Virus record (IMG/VR): IMGVR_UViG_3300024346_010589 | Location: 18,064 to 82,063 of that record | DNA: 64,000 bases | Source: a virus | Reading direction: 5' to 3' (one strand) | In this document: positions 5,754 to 11,729 of the stretch, one piece after another | How positions within the stretch are numbered: position 1 is the first letter of the stretch | Layout: the number at the start of each line of letters is the position of its first letter | The notes under the pieces: generated by a model | Databases searched by the model: none | What the model was told of the DNA's origin: nothing | What the model saw: the letters and a program-made list of their open reading frames with translations, nothing else | Program-made: the position numbers and the translations under genes

Positions 5754-5821
5754 AAGCGCCTTGAAGATGAATATCAGAATCTTGATCAAACAAGATGATA
5801 GGGTGAATCTCCAGGGCGCTT
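5754..5821 (-). ncRNA. Structured RNA hairpin, copy 1 (3' of nrdB)
   Basis: AAGCGCCCTGGAGAT pairs with ATCTTCAAGGCGCTT. An inner TATCA-TCTTG/CAAGA-TGATA helix is present. Related to the element at 11674-11729. Confidence 0.55.
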
Positions 5822-5829
5822 TTTAGAAT

Positions 5830-6843
5830 TTAAAAGTCGTCTTCTAGTGAGCCGCTTTGTTGATACTCGCGGACTCTTCTTTCGAAGAAATTACCCATCG
5901 CCTGCACATCAACAACCTCTCCTAGCCAAGGGAATGGGTTTTTATCGCTAGGGAACCTGTAGTCTAATCCTATAGCTTCTAAGCGTCTATTACCAATGTA
6001 ATGCATATAGTCCACGAACATGTCTGCATTCAACCCAAGTATTCCGGTGGGAAGAACATCTTTTGCATAAGCAATTTCAAGGTCAACTGCTTTTTTAATG
6101 TGTTCAATGAATTCCTCTTGAATTTCTTTAGTCCAAATAGAGGGGTTTTGATCAATTAAAGTATTGATGAGATAAGTTCCAAATGCAATGTGAGAGCTTT
6201 CGTCCCTCAATGTATATTTAATCTGATCAGAAACACCCTGTAATTTATTTTGACGACCAAGCGCAAGAAGCATAGCAAATCCACTAAAGAAAAAAGTACC
6301 TTCGCATATAATCCAGTAGGTCAAGAAGTTTCTTAATATAGCCTGCTTGCCCTCAATGCTAGTTGAGTTGAAGTCATTAGAACTAATATCGTCAGTAATC
6401 TGCATCAAGAAGTCATCCTTAGCTTTAATGCTTGGAACATTTTGATAGGCCGCATAGACCTCGTCAATTTCTAAATCAAGACTATCGCATATGTATACAA
6501 CAGTTAGGTTGTGAAGACTTTCTTCAAAAGCTTGACGCAATATATACTGGCGACACTCAGCGTCTGTAATATAACGAAAAGCGGACAAAAGCAAATTATT
6601 GCCAACCAAAGACTCACTTCCTGCAAAAAATCCAAGACATCGTTTGACAAGTAATTTTTCATCTTCTGTAATTTCATTGTTTTTCCATTGAGCTATATCG
6701 TTTTGCATAGATATTTCAGTGGGCATCCAGTTATTTGCACAGCTTTTAAGGAATAAGTCCCATGCATATTTATGTTTATGGGGCAATATTCTGTTTACCC
6801 CGGCGATATTGTCTGTTAAAAGTTCTCCTGTTTTATCTTTCAT
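5830..6843 (-). CDS. nrdB: Ribonucleotide reductase class I beta subunit, class Ic (R2c)-like
   Basis: NNWMPTEI, FFAGSESLVGNN, QAFEESLH, CEGTFFFSGF, LRDESSH and NFFERRVREYQ. Confidence 0.95.
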   Translation of the reverse strand: MKDKTGELLTDNIAGVNRILPHKHKYAWDLFLKSCANNWMPTEISMQNDIAQWKNNEITEDEKLLVKRCLGFFAGSESLVGNNLLLSAFRYITDAECRQYILRQAFEESLHNLTVVYICDSLDLEIDEVYAAYQNVPSIKAKDDFLMQITDDISSNDFNSTSIEGKQAILRNFLTYWIICEGTFFFSGFAMLLALGRQNKLQGVSDQIKYTLRDESSHIAFGTYLINTLIDQNPSIWTKEIQEEFIEHIKKAVDLEIAYAKDVLPTGILGLNADMFVDYMHYIGNRRLEAIGLDYRFPSDKNPFPWLGEVVDVQAMGNFFERRVREYQQSGSLEDDF

Positions 6844-6882: not shown

Positions 6883-6911
6883 ACTATACAACAAAAAACA
6901 AGAAAGGTCAA
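6883..6911 (-). promoter_or_regulatory. sigma70-type promoter of nrdB
   Basis: TTGACC-17 nt-TATAGT about 40 nt upstream of the ATG. Confidence 0.6.
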
Positions 6912-7246: not shown

Positions 7247-7564
7247 TTATAAATTGTCTGATATTTTTTTGAGTCTAGTTATTATGTAGTTTAGGTTTAG
7301 TGCATTTATTCTATCTACAACTATATCTCCTTTTTTGGGATGGATTAATGCGCCAGACTCCAGCTCCCCCTCGTGGAGAACATAGGAGATGAAATCATGA
7401 GCGCCGTTATTCTTCAACCAATTCCAGTACATAGATCTTGTACCCATCTTGCAGGAAAGCAGTACGTTTTCAAAATGAAACACTTTACTATACATAGTCA
7501 CGTCCCTGAAACAGGATATCTCGCTGGGTGGTTCGGATAGAGTTGAATCTATGATTAAATTCAT
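7247..7564 (-). CDS. Hypothetical protein
   Basis: 105-aa ORF tightly packed in the operon; no recognised motif. Confidence 0.6.
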   Translation of the reverse strand: MNLIIDSTLSEPPSEISCFRDVTMYSKVFHFENVLLSCKMGTRSMYWNWLKNNGAHDFISYVLHEGELESGALIHPKKGDIVVDRINALNLNYIITRLKKISDNL

Positions 7565-8670
7565 TAACTAGAGGATATGATCAATGCCAGAATCACAACT
7601 ATTGCGCAAATTATCAATGGTATGTTTTTGCTTTTCTTGGGTTCTGGTTCTACAGGCTCTGGTTCTGGTTCGACAGGCTCTGGTTCTGGTTCTATGGGCT
7701 CTGGTTCAACAGGCTCTGGTTCAACAGGCTCTGGTTCAACAGGCTCTGGCTCTGGTTCTATGGGCTCTGGTTCAACAGGCTCTGGTTCAACAGGCTCTGG
7801 TTCTGGTTCGGGGTCAATTGGTTTTGGGTTAACAAACCCATCCGAAAACTCTACATAGTAAGGGCCAATAGAGTTCATGATAGAGGACTTAAATAAGGAA
7901 TCCTCCATAAAAAAGTAGCCAGAGTTTCCAAAAAATAAACCCCAACTGTTTTGAAATTCCCAGTAAAGCTTGTCGTTTATATACTTCCAACCAATGAGGC
8001 ATACCGCATGGCCACCTGCAACCTCTGATGCTAGGTATTTTTCTGTATCAACAATGCCGTCATAGCCAATGGAAAAAAAGTAATCCCTGACTTTGAATGC
8101 ATACCAAAGTGGCCGGTCAATCACCATCCTTTTAATCTCTTCTGTTTCAGAGCAGGGTATAACGTGGTAGGAGCTAATCTTTTTGAGTCCAGCGTCTTCT
8201 TTTGCTCCTTCTTTGGGGTTACTGGATTCGCTATCTATATATGGCCAAAAGCTTTCAAAGCAGCAACCTTCGTTTATTAATGCGTTAGCAGCACCCCTGA
8301 TTGATGTTCCTGAGTAATCTTCACCGGCCCATGGGTCGTATTTTTTAGCGGTCTTGTATATCCACATAGGGCTTGGCTCTTCGTTCTTGAACGCACTAGC
8401 CGAACCAAGAACAACCCTTCCGCTGTGGCCCACGCATGAACCTATTGACCCTTGGTTAGCGACGCTTACGCATAGTGATCTTCTGGAGAATTCCTTACTG
8501 TTGACACTTTCGGATTTTAAATACTCAGAGACGTGAACCCAATCTCTTTTATCTGCAGGATGTTCAGAAACATTTAATTTTTTTTCTGAAAATTTATTCT
8601 TTTTAACGTATTTAGATACTGGATTGTCTAGTAATAAGGACGCTATCGATTGTATTAGTTTTTTTCTCAT
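7564..8670 (-). CDS. Papain-like (C1) cysteine protease with Pro/Glu linker and C-terminal membrane anchor
   Basis: NQGSIGSC (oxyanion Q, catalytic C), GGHAV (H) and QNSWG..GYF (N), then PEPVE repeats and KKSK plus a hydrophobic tail. Confidence 0.9.
   Translation of the reverse strand: MRKKLIQSIASLLLDNPVSKYVKKNKFSEKKLNVSEHPADKRDWVHVSEYLKSESVNSKEFSRRSLCVSVANQGSIGSCVGHSGRVVLGSASAFKNEEPSPMWIYKTAKKYDPWAGEDYSGTSIRGAANALINEGCCFESFWPYIDSESSNPKEGAKEDAGLKKISSYHVIPCSETEEIKRMVIDRPLWYAFKVRDYFFSIGYDGIVDTEKYLASEVAGGHAVCLIGWKYINDKLYWEFQNSWGLFFGNSGYFFMEDSLFKSSIMNSIGPYYVEFSDGFVNPKPIDPEPEPEPVEPEPVEPEPIEPEPEPVEPEPVEPEPVEPEPIEPEPEPVEPEPEPVEPEPKKSKNIPLIICAIVVILALIISSS
7638..7815. repeat. Coding tandem repeat (15-bp and 6-bp units) encoding PEPVE/PE
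   Basis: Repeated ggttcaacaggctct and ggttct units. Confidence 0.9.
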
Positions 8671-8696: not shown

Positions 8697-9119
8697 TTAT
8701 ATACCATCTAAGAGGTTAACTATGTTGGGATCTATCAAGTCTTGGAAGTTTACTAGCTCGTTGATTTTAAACCAACCAAACTCACTATGTTCTTGGCATA
8801 ACTGTGGAACCACTATTTTATTGGACCTATGTATATGAAAGTAAAAATCACAATATTCATCTCTTATTACATCGATAAACTCAATAAATTTAAAGTCTAC
8901 AAATATTTTTGACTCTTCCAGTAATTCTCTTCCAGCGCACTCAATTGGAGTTTCGCCTTCATCTATTGATCCACCGAACACAGACCAGTAACCTCCGTAA
9001 GGATATGACTTTCCGGTAACATAGCACTTTTCTGACCTCTTGGCTAATAGTACCGAATTTTCAAATAGTACAGCAACGCCAGAAGCTCTTCTATTGGCAG
9101 CTTTCACATTCTCCACCAT
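8697..9119 (-). CDS. NUDIX hydrolase
   Basis: Nudix box GGSIDEGETPIECAGRELLEESKI; overlaps the end of nrdA. Confidence 0.9.
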   Translation of the reverse strand: MVENVKAANRRASGVAVLFENSVLLAKRSEKCYVTGKSYPYGGYWSVFGGSIDEGETPIECAGRELLEESKIFVDFKFIEFIDVIRDEYCDFYFHIHRSNKIVVPQLCQEHSEFGWFKINELVNFQDLIDPNIVNLLDGI

Positions 9120-11559
9120 TCTTCATCGCTTCAATACTGCAGGCGGTTTGAGAGCTAGAAGAATTTGAATCTTCGGAGGTCGACTTCTCTACCTTACTGG
9201 CGGCCCTATTCCTTAAATAGTACGTTGTCTTTAGTCCTGATTTCCAGCACTCCATATAAATGTCATTTAAGTACTTCAAGGACGTTGAGTTGTTGTATAA
9301 ATTAAAGCTAATTGCTTGGTCGAGCCATTTTTGCCTAGCTGCGTTGCATTCTATTAACTTGAACATATCCCTGTCAAAGGCGGTTTTGTATTTTTCCTTT
9401 ATCCACTGTGGGATATCGCCATTAAGTAAAGAAAGATCTCCATCAACATCCTTGACTAGCTTTGCCACCTCGGGACTCCACAAGCCTTCGTCTTTCATGT
9501 CATCAATAAAATGCTGGTTAGTGATAAAGAAGTTGCCGCTTTTATTTTCATAAACAAAGAGTACGGAAAAGTTGGGCTCAATGCTTTGCTCTACTCCGTT
9601 AATATAACCTATGGTTGCAGTTGGCGCAATAGCCATAACATTAGAGTTTCTCATACCGAATTCAGAAACATGTCGCCTTGAGATCTCCCACTCGTCTTTC
9701 TTGGTTTCACCATTACCAGATGGCGTTTGGCCCTTGTAGGACATTAGGTTATTGTAGGAATCAATTGGGAAAATATTTTGACTCCATAGTGAGCCTTCAT
9801 AAGTTTCATAGGATCCTCTTTCCTTAGCCAGTATGGAGCTAGCGTATATGGATTGGCAAGAATAAAACTCAAACAATTCATCATTGAATTTAATAGATTC
9901 ATCGCTATCAATATTAATATTTAATTTATGAAGCACGTCGTGTATCGCCATCATGCCTAGACCTATAGGGCGATTTTTCAGATTTGAGTTAGCAGCTTCC
10001 TTTGTTGGATAAAAGTTGATATCAATAACATTATCAAGCATTCTTACAGCTGTATGTATTGTTGATTTCAGTTTATCGTAATTAACAAAATAACCAGACT
10101 TGCCGTGCGTGGACTTCTCCTCCACATGGTTGAGTAGATTTATTGATCCTAAGTTGCATACAGCAGTCTCTCCAATTTCAGTCTTCTCGCCGGATTTATA
10201 TTTAGAGGCTTTAGTGTGGAGTGTTATTTCTGTGCATAGATTACTACTATGGACAACTCCTTCATGCTGATTGGTGTATCTTATATTGCACGGATCCTTG
10301 AAGGTACACCAAGGATGTGATGTCTCAAATAATACCTTGAGCATTTTTTTCCACAACTCTTTTGCTGGGGTTTTTCTGAAGTTTTTAACATTTCCGTCTT
10401 CTGCTGATTGGCACATTGCGTTATACTTATTGTCAAAGTCTTCGCCGAAGGAATCATGTAGACTTACTTCACTATCAATGAGCTTTTCGTTTGGGTCAAA
10501 GAAATACCAATCTTCATTAGCTTCAACTTTCCTCATAAAGATATCTGGAATCCATGAAGCAGTATTCATATCGTGACACCTAAGTCTATCGTCACCAGTA
10601 TTTCTTCTTAAGTTTAAGAAGTCCTCAAAGTCTAAATGCCAAGGTTCTAGGTATGCGCAACCTGCACCTGGGCGCTTTCCGCCTTGGTTTACGGCAACCA
10701 GCAAGTCGTTGTAAATTTTCAACCATGGAATTAAACCTCCAGAAGTTCCATTTGTTCCCTTGATGTGGGAGCCTGAAGACCTAAATGGAGTTACATCAAA
10801 ACCTAAACCACCAGCAAACTTGGATTTTCTAGCTTCTTGCCAGGCCCCATCAAATATACCATCAATACTATCATCAAAAGTATTAAGGTAACAAGAGCTA
10901 AGCTGTGAGTGTGTTGTACCGCTGTTGAATAGTGTGGGAGTAGAGGCTGTGTATAAAAATTGACTGAACAGATTGTAGAACTCTATTGCTTTTTCGTTTT
11001 TATCTTCTTCGTTGATGGCTAGACCCATTGCAACTCTCATCCAGAAAGCTTGAGGAGTTTCCATTATTTTCTTTTCACTTCTTATGAAGTAACGATCAAA
11101 TAGTATCTGGATTCCTAAGTATTTAAACTTCTTGTCTCTGTCTATCTTTAGCGCCTCTGAGAGTTTAGCAAAATCAAATCCAAGTAATCTTTCGTCTAGC
11201 ATTTCCTGCTTTACTAATTTTTTAATGTTCTGTATGAAGCTTTTTCTATATTGTGACTGGAAAGCTTCTGAGTCAACCCCCTCTTTGAATACTTCTTTGT
11301 ATAAGCAGTTTAATAGTAAACCTGCAGCAGCGTAAGAATAGTTTGGCTCTTTTTCTATTTTTTCTCTAGCAGATAAAACCAAAGCTTTGTCTATTTCGAT
11401 AGTAGTTATTTTATCAAATAATTGCAACTGTGCATCTAGTACTATCTCGCTTGGAGAAACGTTGTCTATGTCACTGCACGCTCTTAATGCGCTGGCGTTT
11501 ATTTTATCTACTTCAAATTCTTCTAGGCGGCCGTTTCTTTTCTTAACTTTAATATTCAT
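9091..11559 (-). CDS. nrdA: Ribonucleotide reductase class I alpha subunit with N-terminal ATP cone
   Basis: VKKRNG ATP cone, TPTLFN, LSSCYL, SNLCTEI, CNLGS, APTA, KTTYYLR and C-terminal CESCQ. Confidence 0.97.
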   Translation of the reverse strand: MNIKVKKRNGRLEEFEVDKINASALRACSDIDNVSPSEIVLDAQLQLFDKITTIEIDKALVLSAREKIEKEPNYSYAAAGLLLNCLYKEVFKEGVDSEAFQSQYRKSFIQNIKKLVKQEMLDERLLGFDFAKLSEALKIDRDKKFKYLGIQILFDRYFIRSEKKIMETPQAFWMRVAMGLAINEEDKNEKAIEFYNLFSQFLYTASTPTLFNSGTTHSQLSSCYLNTFDDSIDGIFDGAWQEARKSKFAGGLGFDVTPFRSSGSHIKGTNGTSGGLIPWLKIYNDLLVAVNQGGKRPGAGCAYLEPWHLDFEDFLNLRRNTGDDRLRCHDMNTASWIPDIFMRKVEANEDWYFFDPNEKLIDSEVSLHDSFGEDFDNKYNAMCQSAEDGNVKNFRKTPAKELWKKMLKVLFETSHPWCTFKDPCNIRYTNQHEGVVHSSNLCTEITLHTKASKYKSGEKTEIGETAVCNLGSINLLNHVEEKSTHGKSGYFVNYDKLKSTIHTAVRMLDNVIDINFYPTKEAANSNLKNRPIGLGMMAIHDVLHKLNINIDSDESIKFNDELFEFYSCQSIYASSILAKERGSYETYEGSLWSQNIFPIDSYNNLMSYKGQTPSGNGETKKDEWEISRRHVSEFGMRNSNVMAIAPTATIGYINGVEQSIEPNFSVLFVYENKSGNFFITNQHFIDDMKDEGLWSPEVAKLVKDVDGDLSLLNGDIPQWIKEKYKTAFDRDMFKLIECNAARQKWLDQAISFNLYNNSTSLKYLNDIYMECWKSGLKTTYYLRNRAASKVEKSTSEDSNSSSSQTACSIEAMKNGGECESCQ

Positions 11560-11673: not shown

Positions 11674-11729
11674 TTAACAATAAGAGAACCAAGGATGAAT
11701 GTGGGAATCCCTAGTGTGCTTATTGTTAA
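11674..11729 (-). ncRNA. Structured RNA hairpin, copy 2 (between the ugd-like gene and the nrdA promoter)
   Basis: Perfect 11-bp stem TTAACAATAAG/CTTATTGTTAA, a 3x3 internal loop, a 9-bp stem ACTAGGGAT/ATCCTTGGT with two G-U pairs, and loop TCCCACATTC. Confidence 0.55.

What the first reader, a model, noticed from the sequence alone, without database searches (positions are those of the whole stretch)
5830..6843. Phage NrdB with class Ic (Mn/Fe, no tyrosyl radical) signature
Seen: the first metal ligand is Glu (GSESLVGNN), and the radical-Tyr position four residues after the first His is Val (EESLHNLTV). A Tyr sits five residues before the DExxH Glu (KYTLRDE). Established: Chlamydia trachomatis R2c has Glu for Asp, Phe for the radical Tyr and Tyr222 at that position, and uses a Mn(IV)/Fe(III) cofactor. 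Inference: a peroxide/NO-tolerant, iron-sparing RNR, and a hint of a PVC-superphylum host.
Basis: partly seen in the sequence, partly recalled or inferred. Interest (0 to 1): 0.7.

Follow-up and report, generated by a model that had tools for sequence, protein, structure and literature searches.

The report
Tyrosine-less (Val-type) phage RNR subunit
An uncultured marine phage of about 200 kb carries its own ribonucleotide reductase, and its small subunit has valine where most such enzymes keep the radical-bearing tyrosine, as in the Chlamydia manganese/iron type; the reading is sound, but this Val/Ile lineage is common in ocean viromes, has already been flagged in print, has never been tested at the bench, and says nothing about a Chlamydia-like host.

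Summary
Window 5830-6843 (minus strand) encodes a 337-aa NrdB with Glu77 as first metal ligand and Val115 at the E. coli Tyr122 / C. trachomatis Phe127 position. The other five ligands, the pathway Trp39 and the C-terminal Tyr327 are intact. Its best solved relative, by sequence (E 1e-113) and by fold (TM 0.88-0.92), is the C. trachomatis Mn/Fe R2c. An intact NrdA lies 2.2 kb upstream.

The contig is a tailed phage. A syntenic 210.8-kb contig appears to be circular, and IMG/VR relatives reach 214 kb.

Glu77 is invariant and site 115 is Val or Ile in 199 of the 200 close homologs checked. On the tree the Val/Ile types form one clade.

The nearest cellular relatives are Ile-type alphaproteobacterial MAG proteins, not chlamydial ones. 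One of them is the only RNR found in a chromosome-level 1.65-Mb assembly, so this type can probably serve as a cell's sole RNR.

This is not new. Leu/Ile/Val variants of R2c were documented by 2010 (cited in PMC3824934). A 2026 preprint (PMC12918982) names a marine viral 'subclass Ic-like' clade with Ile/Val. This scan has also found and followed up the same gene on other DNA, with the same verdict.

The Mn/Fe cofactor is inferred, not shown. The Tyr210 'signature' is not diagnostic. The PVC-host hint is unsupported.

The parts
5830..6843 (-). nrdB: class I RNR small (beta) subunit of R2c / 'Ic-like' type, 337 aa
   Evidence: PF00268 at 1.8e-76. Best PDB sequence hit is C. trachomatis R2c at 1.6e-113. 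The AF2 model has pLDDT 88.7, and its best folds are Ct Mn/Fe NrdB at TM 0.88-0.92 and rmsd 1.4 A.
6613..6615 (-). Codon GAG = Glu77, the first metal ligand (Asp84 in E. coli, Glu89 in Ct R2c)
   Evidence: Invariant in 120/120 and 80/80 homologs.
6499..6501 (-). Codon GTT = Val115, at the radical-Tyr position (E. coli Tyr122, Ct Phe127)
   Evidence: Val or Ile in 119/120 and 80/80 homologs.
6214..6216 (-). Codon TAT = Tyr210 (= Ct Tyr222). Conserved, but not specific to class Ic.
   Evidence: Also Tyr in 19/28 Asp/Tyr relatives.
5863..5865 (-). Codon TAT = Tyr327, the C-terminal pathway Tyr (E. coli Tyr356 / Ct Tyr338) in the disordered alpha-binding tail
   Evidence: Invariant column in A1. 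The tail 313-337 has pLDDT below 50.
6883..6911 (-). Sigma-70-like promoter candidate TTGACC-17-TATAGT, about 40 nt upstream of the nrdB ATG
   Evidence: 10/12 match in the intergenic spacer. Such sites are not enriched over shuffles in this region, so this is only a candidate.
9091..11559 (-). nrdA: class I RNR large (alpha) subunit, 822 aa, with one N-terminal ATP-cone
   Evidence: PF02867 at 7e-168, PF00317 and PF03477. C223, N440, C442, E444, C468, Y780, Y781 and the C-terminal Cys pair align with the E. coli catalytic and pathway residues. Best PDB hit is 5im3 at 1.3e-227.
8697..9119 (-). Nudix hydrolase, 140 aa, overlapping the 3' end of nrdA by 29 nt. A likely nucleotide-pool companion gene.
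   Evidence: PF00293 at 1.1e-15. ORF.

Best explanation
nrdB (5830-6843, minus strand) encodes the radical-initiating beta subunit of a phage class I ribonucleotide reductase. It works with the NrdA encoded 2.2 kb upstream to supply dNDPs while a genome of about 200 kb is replicated.

Shown from sequence: the beta subunit has the Chlamydia R2c-type site, with four Glu and two His ligands. It has an aliphatic, non-oxidisable residue (Val115) where class Ia/Ib/Id enzymes keep the radical tyrosine, so it cannot store a tyrosyl radical at the canonical position.

Inferred from the characterised C. trachomatis enzyme: the oxidant is held on the metal cluster itself, most likely Mn(IV)/Fe(III) with Mn in site 1, formed from Mn(II)/Fe(II) and O2. 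The oxidising equivalent would pass through Trp39 and C-terminal Tyr327 to Tyr781/Tyr780 and Cys442 of NrdA.

It belongs to the Val/Ile-type lineage that is abundant in marine viromes and that a 2026 preprint calls 'subclass Ic-like'.
For: - Family and ligands: PF00268 at 1.8e-76. All six ligands plus W39, Y210 and Y327 align without gaps to Ct R2c and to E. coli NrdB, where E77=D84 and V115=Y122.
- Closest solved relatives: the Ct Mn/Fe NrdB structures by sequence (382.5 bits, E 1e-113) and by predicted fold (TM 0.88-0.92, rmsd 1.4 A, 51% identity), followed by the R2 subunit 6y2n.
- Purifying selection: Glu77 is 200/200 and Val/Ile115 is 199/200 across close homologs.
- Phylogeny: the Glu+Val and Glu+Ile rows form one clade (SH-aLRT 97), with a Glu+Phe pair as sister.
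- Partner subunit: NrdA keeps every catalytic and pathway residue checked. nrdA lies upstream on the same strand in 59 of 80 viral loci.
- Competence: an Ile-type homolog (61% identical) with its adjacent NrdA is the only PF02867 and PF00268 hit in a chromosome-level 1.65-Mb alphaproteobacterial MAG, which also has no PF13597 hit.
- Literature: class Ic chemistry (PMC8463856). Leu/Ile/Val variants of R2c cited to Hogbom 2010 (PMC3824934). Marine viral Ile/Val 'Ic-like' clade, anti-correlated with modelled iron (PMC12918982).
Against: - No member of the Val/Ile clade has been characterised biochemically, so metal identity is pure inference. The preprint authors leave open mixed, other or no metal.
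- Glu at the first ligand also occurs together with Tyr in related clades (6 Glu/Tyr rows), so the ligand set alone does not dictate Mn/Fe.
- Identity to the Ct enzyme is only about 51%.
- The Ct scaffold itself is prone to mismetallation.
Confidence: 0.7

Rival explanations
1. A distinct class I subclass. The Val/Ile clade would be catalytically active but would use a cofactor or oxidant other than Mn(IV)/Fe(III), for example a homodinuclear high-valent cluster, or different activation chemistry.
For: - The clade is phylogenetically separate from the sampled Glu/Phe groups (SH-aLRT 97).
- The preprint keeps it apart from class Ic and reports no clear single-metal biogeography.
- There are no biochemical data.
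Against: - The first-sphere ligand set is identical to Ct R2c.
- The Ct Mn/Fe structures are clearly the best sequence and fold matches.
- Class Id and Ie hallmarks are absent: Id retains the Tyr, and Ie has lost metal ligands.
Confidence: 0.2
2. A tyrosyl or tryptophanyl radical is stored at a non-canonical residue near the cluster (for example Tyr117, Tyr176 or Tyr210), so the enzyme would still be a radical-storing R2.
For: Several conserved aromatic residues lie near the ligand helices. Tyr210 is invariant in the clade.
Against: [quoted passage not shown] Tyr210 is also present in Asp/Tyr relatives.
Confidence: 0.05
3. Not an RNR subunit in function: either an inactive or regulatory R2 paralog, or an R2lox-type oxidase.
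For: Loss of the radical Tyr is also seen in inactive R2 paralogs. Degenerate R2 homologs lacking ligands turned up among the database representatives.
Against: - All six ligands, W39 and the C-terminal Tyr tail are kept.
- It is linked to an intact nrdA.
- It is the only R2 found on the 82-kb record (one PF00268 match).
- The Ile-type is the sole RNR found in a chromosome-level bacterial assembly.
- R2lox structures match only at E 1e-8 to 1e-10, against 1e-113 for R2c.
Confidence: 0.02
4. A cellular gene rather than a phage gene. The contig would be a bacterial fragment or a prophage flank, and nrdAB would belong to the host.
For: - 89-90% identical copies sit in MAGs labelled Cellvibrionales and Woesebacteria.
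- The region also carries O-antigen-like sugar genes.
- The 'Cellvibrionales' MAG has no other NrdB.
Against: - Synteny between the 82-kb record and the 210.8-kb MAG contig covers the whole record and wraps around the contig's ends. That contig is therefore most likely a circular ~211-kb replicon carrying tail L/K/J, tape-measure and DNA polymerase genes, with only one tRNA.
- 239 IMG/VR contigs carry the gene, several of them 200-214 kb.
- The MAG's megabase contig has its own PF02867 gene without a beta subunit, probably class II.
Confidence: 0.03

Closest known systems
Marine viral 'subclass Ic-like' RNR clade (bioRxiv 2026, PMC12918982; 269 GOV 2.0 alpha sequences)
   Same: Marine viral contigs. 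The class I alpha lies near the NrdAz-type enzymes. The linked beta lacks the radical Tyr and carries Ile or Val there. None has been characterised biochemically. This NrdB and its 200 close homologs are Val or Ile.
   Different: Membership could not be checked sequence against sequence, because the preprint's sequences are not on hand. The preprint does not report the genome type. Here the carriers are siphovirus-like phages of about 200-214 kb.
Chlamydia trachomatis class Ic R2c (PDB 1syy, 4d8f, 4m1i; Mn(IV)/Fe(III) cofactor)
   Same: Same 4 Glu + 2 His ligand set and no Tyr at the radical site. Trp51, Tyr222 and Tyr338 equivalents are kept. It is the best sequence (E 1e-113) and fold (TM about 0.9) match.
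   Different: Val115 instead of Phe127. About 51% identity. On my own knowledge, the Chlamydia alpha subunit carries several ATP-cones, whereas this NrdA has one. The carrier is a marine phage, not an intracellular pathogen. The cofactor is untested.
Ile-type NrdB of alphaproteobacterial MAGs (OZ244156.1, CBFGSX010000068.1, CAXRKA010000149.1)
   Same: 58-61% identical, Glu first ligand, aliphatic residue (EECLHNHTI) at the radical site, nrdA adjacent. They are the closest cellular relatives (475 and 456 bits) and sister to the phage clade.
   Different: Cellular, Ile rather than Val, and the sole RNR found in a chromosome-level 1.65-Mb assembly.
Class Ia-type NrdB of Pseudomonas phages vB_PpuM-Peetri and relatives (the nearest deposited true phage genomes)
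   Same: 42-43% identical NrdB, next to nrdA in phages of about 200 kb. The Tyr210 equivalent is kept.
   Different: They have Asp as first ligand and Tyr at the radical site, i.e. an ordinary diiron-tyrosyl signature. Every match among the 50,697 deposited phage records is below 60% identity.

Membership tests
Class I RNR beta subunit (Ribonuc_red_sm, PF00268) | Profile match above the curated cut-off | tested here: met
   257.7 bits against a cut-off of 33.6, covering profile positions 4-281 of 281.
Class I RNR beta subunit (Ribonuc_red_sm, PF00268) | Six carboxylate/histidine metal ligands on four helices | tested here: met
   E77, E108, H111, E181, E215 and H218 align to the Ct and E. coli ligands.
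Class I RNR beta subunit (Ribonuc_red_sm, PF00268) | Radical-transfer Trp, and a C-terminal Tyr in a flexible alpha-binding tail | tested here: met
   W39 and Y327 are invariant columns. The tail 313-337 is disordered in the model.
Class I RNR beta subunit (Ribonuc_red_sm, PF00268) | A cognate alpha subunit with catalytic Cys/Asn/Glu, the Tyr-Tyr dyad and a C-terminal Cys pair | tested here: met
   NrdA at 9091-11559 has C223, N440, C442, E444, C468, Y780, Y781, C807 and C821.
Class Ic RNR (R2c) | Glu instead of Asp as the first metal ligand | tested here: met
   Glu77 = Ct Glu89 = E. coli Asp84.
Class Ic RNR (R2c) | A redox-inert residue at the radical-Tyr site (Phe in the type enzyme; Leu/Ile/Val documented) | tested here: met
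   Val115 = Ct Phe127 = E. coli Tyr122. Literature on the variants: PMC3824934 citing Hogbom 2010. PMC12918982 treats Ile/Val as atypical.
Class Ic RNR (R2c) | Mn(IV)/Fe(III) heterodinuclear cofactor acting as the Cys oxidant | not testable with these tools
   Needs metal reconstitution, an activity assay and EPR/Mossbauer. Inferred only from similarity to 4d8f/4m1i.
Class Ic RNR (R2c) | Groups with characterised R2c on a tree | tested here: inconclusive
   The Val/Ile clade is sister to one Glu/Phe pair, but Glu/Phe rows are scattered over several clades. No named Chlamydia sequence could be placed in the tree.
Marine viral 'subclass Ic-like' clade (PMC12918982) | Marine viral contig whose beta lacks Tyr and has Ile or Val | tested here: met
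   IMG/VR record. Tara-labelled homologs. Val/Ile in 199/200 homologs.
Marine viral 'subclass Ic-like' clade (PMC12918982) | Alpha subunit falls next to the RNRdb clade NrdAz | tested here: inconclusive
   The best solved alpha is 5im3 at E 1.3e-227. On my own knowledge this is the P. aeruginosa NrdAz-type enzyme. No RNRdb tree was available.
[quoted passage not shown] | No C-terminal Tyr or alpha-binding tail, and not linked to nrdA | tested here: not met
   Tyr327 and the tail are present and nrdA is linked. R2lox chains match only at 1e-8 to 1e-10.
Class Id (Mn2) / class Ie (metal-free DOPA) | Id retains the Tyr; Ie has lost metal ligands | tested here: not met
   There is no Tyr at site 115 and all six ligands are present. 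Chains that I recall, from my own knowledge, as class Id type (6cwo, 6sf4) match only weakly, at about 1e-9.

The most novel reading that the evidence does not exclude
The Val/Ile-type beta subunits, abundant in ~200-kb marine phages and present as the sole RNR in some small-genome Alphaproteobacteria, form a biochemically distinct class I subclass. Its cofactor or activation chemistry would differ from the Chlamydia Mn(IV)/Fe(III) enzyme, possibly as an adaptation to low-iron ocean water.
Probability: 0.2. Interest if true: 0.7.

Novelty: new member of a known kind. Interest (0 to 1): 0.38.

Why it matters
RNR type is used as a marker for how marine phages obtain DNA precursors and which trace metals limit them. 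A tyrosyl-radical-free RNR, probably needing one iron and one manganese, would be a plausible adaptation to iron-poor water in an abundant lineage of ~200-kb ocean phages. It would also be a second, non-pathogen setting in which to study class Ic chemistry.

The value of this window is modest. It gives an intact, linked nrdA-nrdB pair of the Val type that could be expressed directly. It also gives two pieces of context: the carriers are jumbo siphovirus-like phages, and the nearest cellular relatives are alphaproteobacterial. The type itself was already noticed in the literature and several times in this scan.

Tried and rejected
- I first suspected a cellular origin, because a 'Cellvibrionales' MAG holds a 90% identical copy and no other NrdB. 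I rejected this when synteny with the 82-kb record wrapped around the ends of that 210.8-kb contig, and when the MAG's megabase contig showed its own alpha-type RNR gene.
- 'Acinetobacter phage MD-2021a', the top hit in the phage collection, proved to lie among bacterial-type chromosomal genes and to have an Asp/Tyr NrdB. I did not use it as a phage comparison.
- PHROGs gave no hits for 8 of 10 large ORFs elsewhere in the 211-kb relative. No terminase, capsid or portal genes were identified, so the phage call rests on tail genes, the tape measure, a DNA polymerase and the IMG/VR classification.
- Host assignment was not resolved. The comparison with Chlamydia therefore rests on PDB alignments and bit scores.
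- Promoter-like sites are not enriched over shuffles (14 found against 20.1 expected), so the nrdB promoter is only a candidate.
- My early estimate of about 57-60% identity to Ct R2c (recorded) was too high. The structure-based alignment gives 50-51%.

Full report
**Observation.** The finding's coordinates hold a single 337-aa ORF on the minus strand (5830-6843). The plus-strand frame is full of stops. The three quoted peptides are present. Codon positions are Glu77 at 6613-6615, Val115 at 6499-6501 and Tyr210 at 6214-6216.

**What the protein is.** Pfam gives Ribonuc_red_sm at 1.8e-76 and PHROGs gives the RNR small-subunit family.
- Against all PDB sequences, the four best hits are three C. 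trachomatis R2c sequences (1syy, 2ani, 4d8f; E about 1e-113, 382.5 bits) and the R2 subunit 6y2n (361 bits). All other R2 proteins fall below 133 bits, and E. coli R2 scores 56 bits.
- The alignment to Ct R2c has no gaps across the metal site. It gives E77=E89, E108=E120, H111=H123, V115=F127, E181=E193, Y210=Y222, E215=E227, H218=H230, W39=W51 and Y327=Y338.
- A MAFFT alignment with E. coli K-12 NrdB (read from NC_000913) puts Glu77 on Asp84 and Val115 on Tyr122.
- An AlphaFold2 model (pLDDT 88.7, with only the C-terminal tail disordered) superposes best on the Mn/Fe-loaded Ct NrdB structures: TM 0.88-0.92, rmsd 1.4 A, 50-51% identity.

**Partner and neighbours.** NrdA lies at 9091-11559 on the same strand. 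It is 822 aa with one ATP-cone, the all-alpha domain and the barrel.
- Aligned with E. coli NrdA, it keeps C225, N437, C439, E441, C462, Y730, Y731 and the C-terminal Cys pair, as C223, N440, C442, E444, C468, Y780, Y781, C807 and C821.
- Its best solved relative is 5im3 at E 1.3e-227.
- A 140-aa Nudix hydrolase (8697-9119) overlaps the end of nrdA.
- Between nrdA and nrdB lie a papain-family peptidase with a Pro/Glu repeat tail (7564-8670) and two small ORFs with no family match.
- This spacer is variable. In 59 of 80 related viral loci nrdA is upstream on the same strand, with gaps of 55-4408 bp and a median of 754 bp.
- A TTGACC-17-TATAGT site sits about 40 nt before the nrdB start. It is only a candidate promoter.

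**Is it a phage?** Yes.
- The window is part of an 82-kb IMG/VR record.
- It carries lambda-type tail genes: tail L, a JAB+NlpC/P60 tail K, and a 1798-aa Phage-tail_3 protein. It also has a 4033-aa ORF that other first-reader notes take as the tape measure.
- A 210,818-bp contig filed in a 'Cellvibrionales' MAG (JAYQMT010000004.1) is syntenic with the entire 82-kb record. The synteny runs off one end of that contig and continues at the other. The contig is therefore most simply a circular replicon of about 211 kb. It has a single tRNA and a phage-type DNA polymerase.
- IMG/VR holds 239 contigs with a close copy of this NrdB. Several are 200-214 kb.
- That MAG has no other NrdB. Its megabase contig does carry a separate PF02867 gene with no beta subunit, so the nrdAB pair belongs to the phage replicon and not to the bacterial chromosome.

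**Conservation and phylogeny.**
- Among 120 metagenomic proteins of 80-96% identity, many from Tara and JGI marine data, Glu77 is invariant, site 115 is Val in 74 and Ile in 45, and Tyr210 is present in 119.
- In 80 IMG/VR loci the counts are Glu 80, Val 71, Ile 9 and Tyr210 80.
- In the set of 98 rows drawn mainly from a whole-library search of 50%-identity representatives, with a few close homologs and reference sequences added, the combinations were Asp/Tyr 33, Glu/Phe 15, Glu/Val 9, Glu/Ile 6, Glu/Leu 2 and Glu/Tyr 6.
- On a quick maximum-likelihood tree of the 63 rows with intact ligands, the Val and Ile rows form one clade (SH-aLRT 97) with a Glu/Phe pair as sister (98). Other Glu/Phe groups lie elsewhere. 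This was a quick search with a single outgroup, so deep branching should not be over-read.

**Cellular relatives and the host hint.**
- The only genome-collection hits besides the mis-binned phage contigs are three alphaproteobacterial MAGs and one Bdellovibrionales MAG, at 58-60% identity.
- Two of the alphaproteobacterial proteins score 475 and 456 bits with phmmer. That is well above the 382.5 bits of the Chlamydia protein. All three alphaproteobacterial proteins carry Ile at the radical site (EECLHNHTI).
- One of them lies in a 1.65-Mb record titled as a chromosome (OZ244156.1). In that genome the adjacent NrdA/NrdB pair is the only hit for the large-subunit, small-subunit and anaerobic RNR families. 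If the assembly is complete, the aliphatic type serves as a cell's only RNR, which argues strongly that it is catalytically competent.
- None of this points to the PVC superphylum.
- The binning hints (Cellvibrionales, Woesebacteria) contradict each other. The host remains unknown.

**Mechanism.**
- Shown: the protein has an R2c-type ligand set, no oxidisable residue at the canonical radical site, an intact radical-transfer route, and a functional-looking partner.
- Established for the Chlamydia enzyme (PMC8463856): the Cys oxidant is a Mn(IV)/Fe(III) cluster with Mn in site 1. It is assembled from Mn(II)/Fe(II) plus O2, and it can also be activated with H2O2.
- Inferred: the phage enzyme works the same way. 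I put Mn/Fe at roughly 0.7 and another metal-centred oxidant at about 0.2.
- Tyr210 matches Ct Tyr222. On my own knowledge, that residue has been assigned a role in cofactor activation in Chlamydia. However, the same Tyr is found in 19 of 28 Asp/Tyr relatives, so it is a trait of the wider clade and not a class Ic mark.
- Peroxide/NO tolerance and iron sparing are reasonable extrapolations, not results. The preprint does report that Ic-like viral populations are anti-correlated with modelled iron, but its discussion finds no clear single-metal pattern.

**Comparison with what is known.**
- PMC3824934 states, citing Hogbom 2010, that Leu, Ile and Val substitutions at this site are documented in R2c proteins.
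- PMC12918982 (bioRxiv 2026) describes 269 marine viral class I alpha sequences next to NrdAz whose beta subunits have Ile or Val at the Tyr site. It names them 'subclass Ic-like' and notes that none has been characterised.
- The present gene fits that description in every respect I could test.
- Every match among the 50,697 deposited phage records is below 60% identity. The nearest true phages (Pseudomonas phage Peetri and relatives, 42-43%) have an ordinary Asp/Tyr site.
- This scan has already flagged the same gene on several other genomes. Earlier follow-ups reached the same verdict. I found the preprint independently before seeing those notes.

**Verdict.** The class Ic-type reading is sound, but with Val rather than Phe and with the cofactor untested. 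The Tyr222 argument is weak and the PVC-host hint is unsupported. This is a new member of a known, recently named but biochemically uncharacterised group, and interest is moderate.

Noticed in passing
window 8697-9119 (-): A 140-aa Nudix hydrolase (PF00293, 1.1e-15) overlaps the 3' end of nrdA by 29 nt. It is a likely nucleotide-pool companion of the RNR.
   Followed up: partly
window 7564-8670 (-): A papain-family (C1) peptidase with a long (PEPEPV)n-like Pro/Glu repeat and a C-terminal hydrophobic anchor sits between nrdA and nrdB. The nrdA-nrdB spacer varies from 55 to 4408 bp among 59 related viral loci.
   Followed up: partly
G001:C4 (JAYQMT010000004.1, loci L010-L020): A 210,818-bp contig binned in a 'Cellvibrionales' MAG is syntenic with the whole 82-kb record, and the synteny wraps around its ends. 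It looks like a complete circular jumbo-phage genome that was mis-binned. An 11-kb fragment of a related phage sits in a 'Woesebacteria' MAG (L004).
   Followed up: partly
G001:C5:1006936-1008578 (L027, L029): The megabase contig of the same MAG has a PF02867 RNR gene with no beta subunit anywhere in the MAG. It is probably a class II enzyme. The match is split and contains one in-frame TAA, which may be a long-read assembly error. The phage copy of nrdA on C4 is split in the same way.
   Followed up: no
L005 / G002 (OZ244156.1, 415800-418592): A 1.65-Mb alphaproteobacterial MAG record titled as a chromosome has an Ile-type (Tyr-less) NrdB with adjacent NrdA as its only detectable RNR. There is no second PF02867 or PF00268 hit and no PF13597 hit.
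   Followed up: yes
L023 (CAKLQH020000007.1, 'Acinetobacter phage MD-2021a'): This record in the phage collection carries rstAB, LysR and TetR regulators and an ordinary bacterial nrdAB. It looks like a bacterial chromosome contig rather than a phage.
   Followed up: no
proteins P0123, P0124, P0128-P0130, P0132, P0133 and others: Many representatives related to this NrdB are about 610-660 aa and match it in two stretches, broken near residue 216, just after the ligand Glu215. This suggests intein-containing NrdB genes.
   Followed up: no
window 5754-5821 and 11674-11729 (-): Another first-reader note (e1-6108821) reports two copies of a structured RNA motif bracketing the RNR locus. I did not test it.
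   Followed up: no
window 1-20329 and G000:C1:1-18063: A long run of nucleotide-sugar and glycan genes lies next to the RNR genes in a phage: GDP-mannose dehydratase, epimerases, a DegT aminotransferase, a UDP-glucose dehydrogenase-like gene and a sulfotransferase.
   Followed up: no
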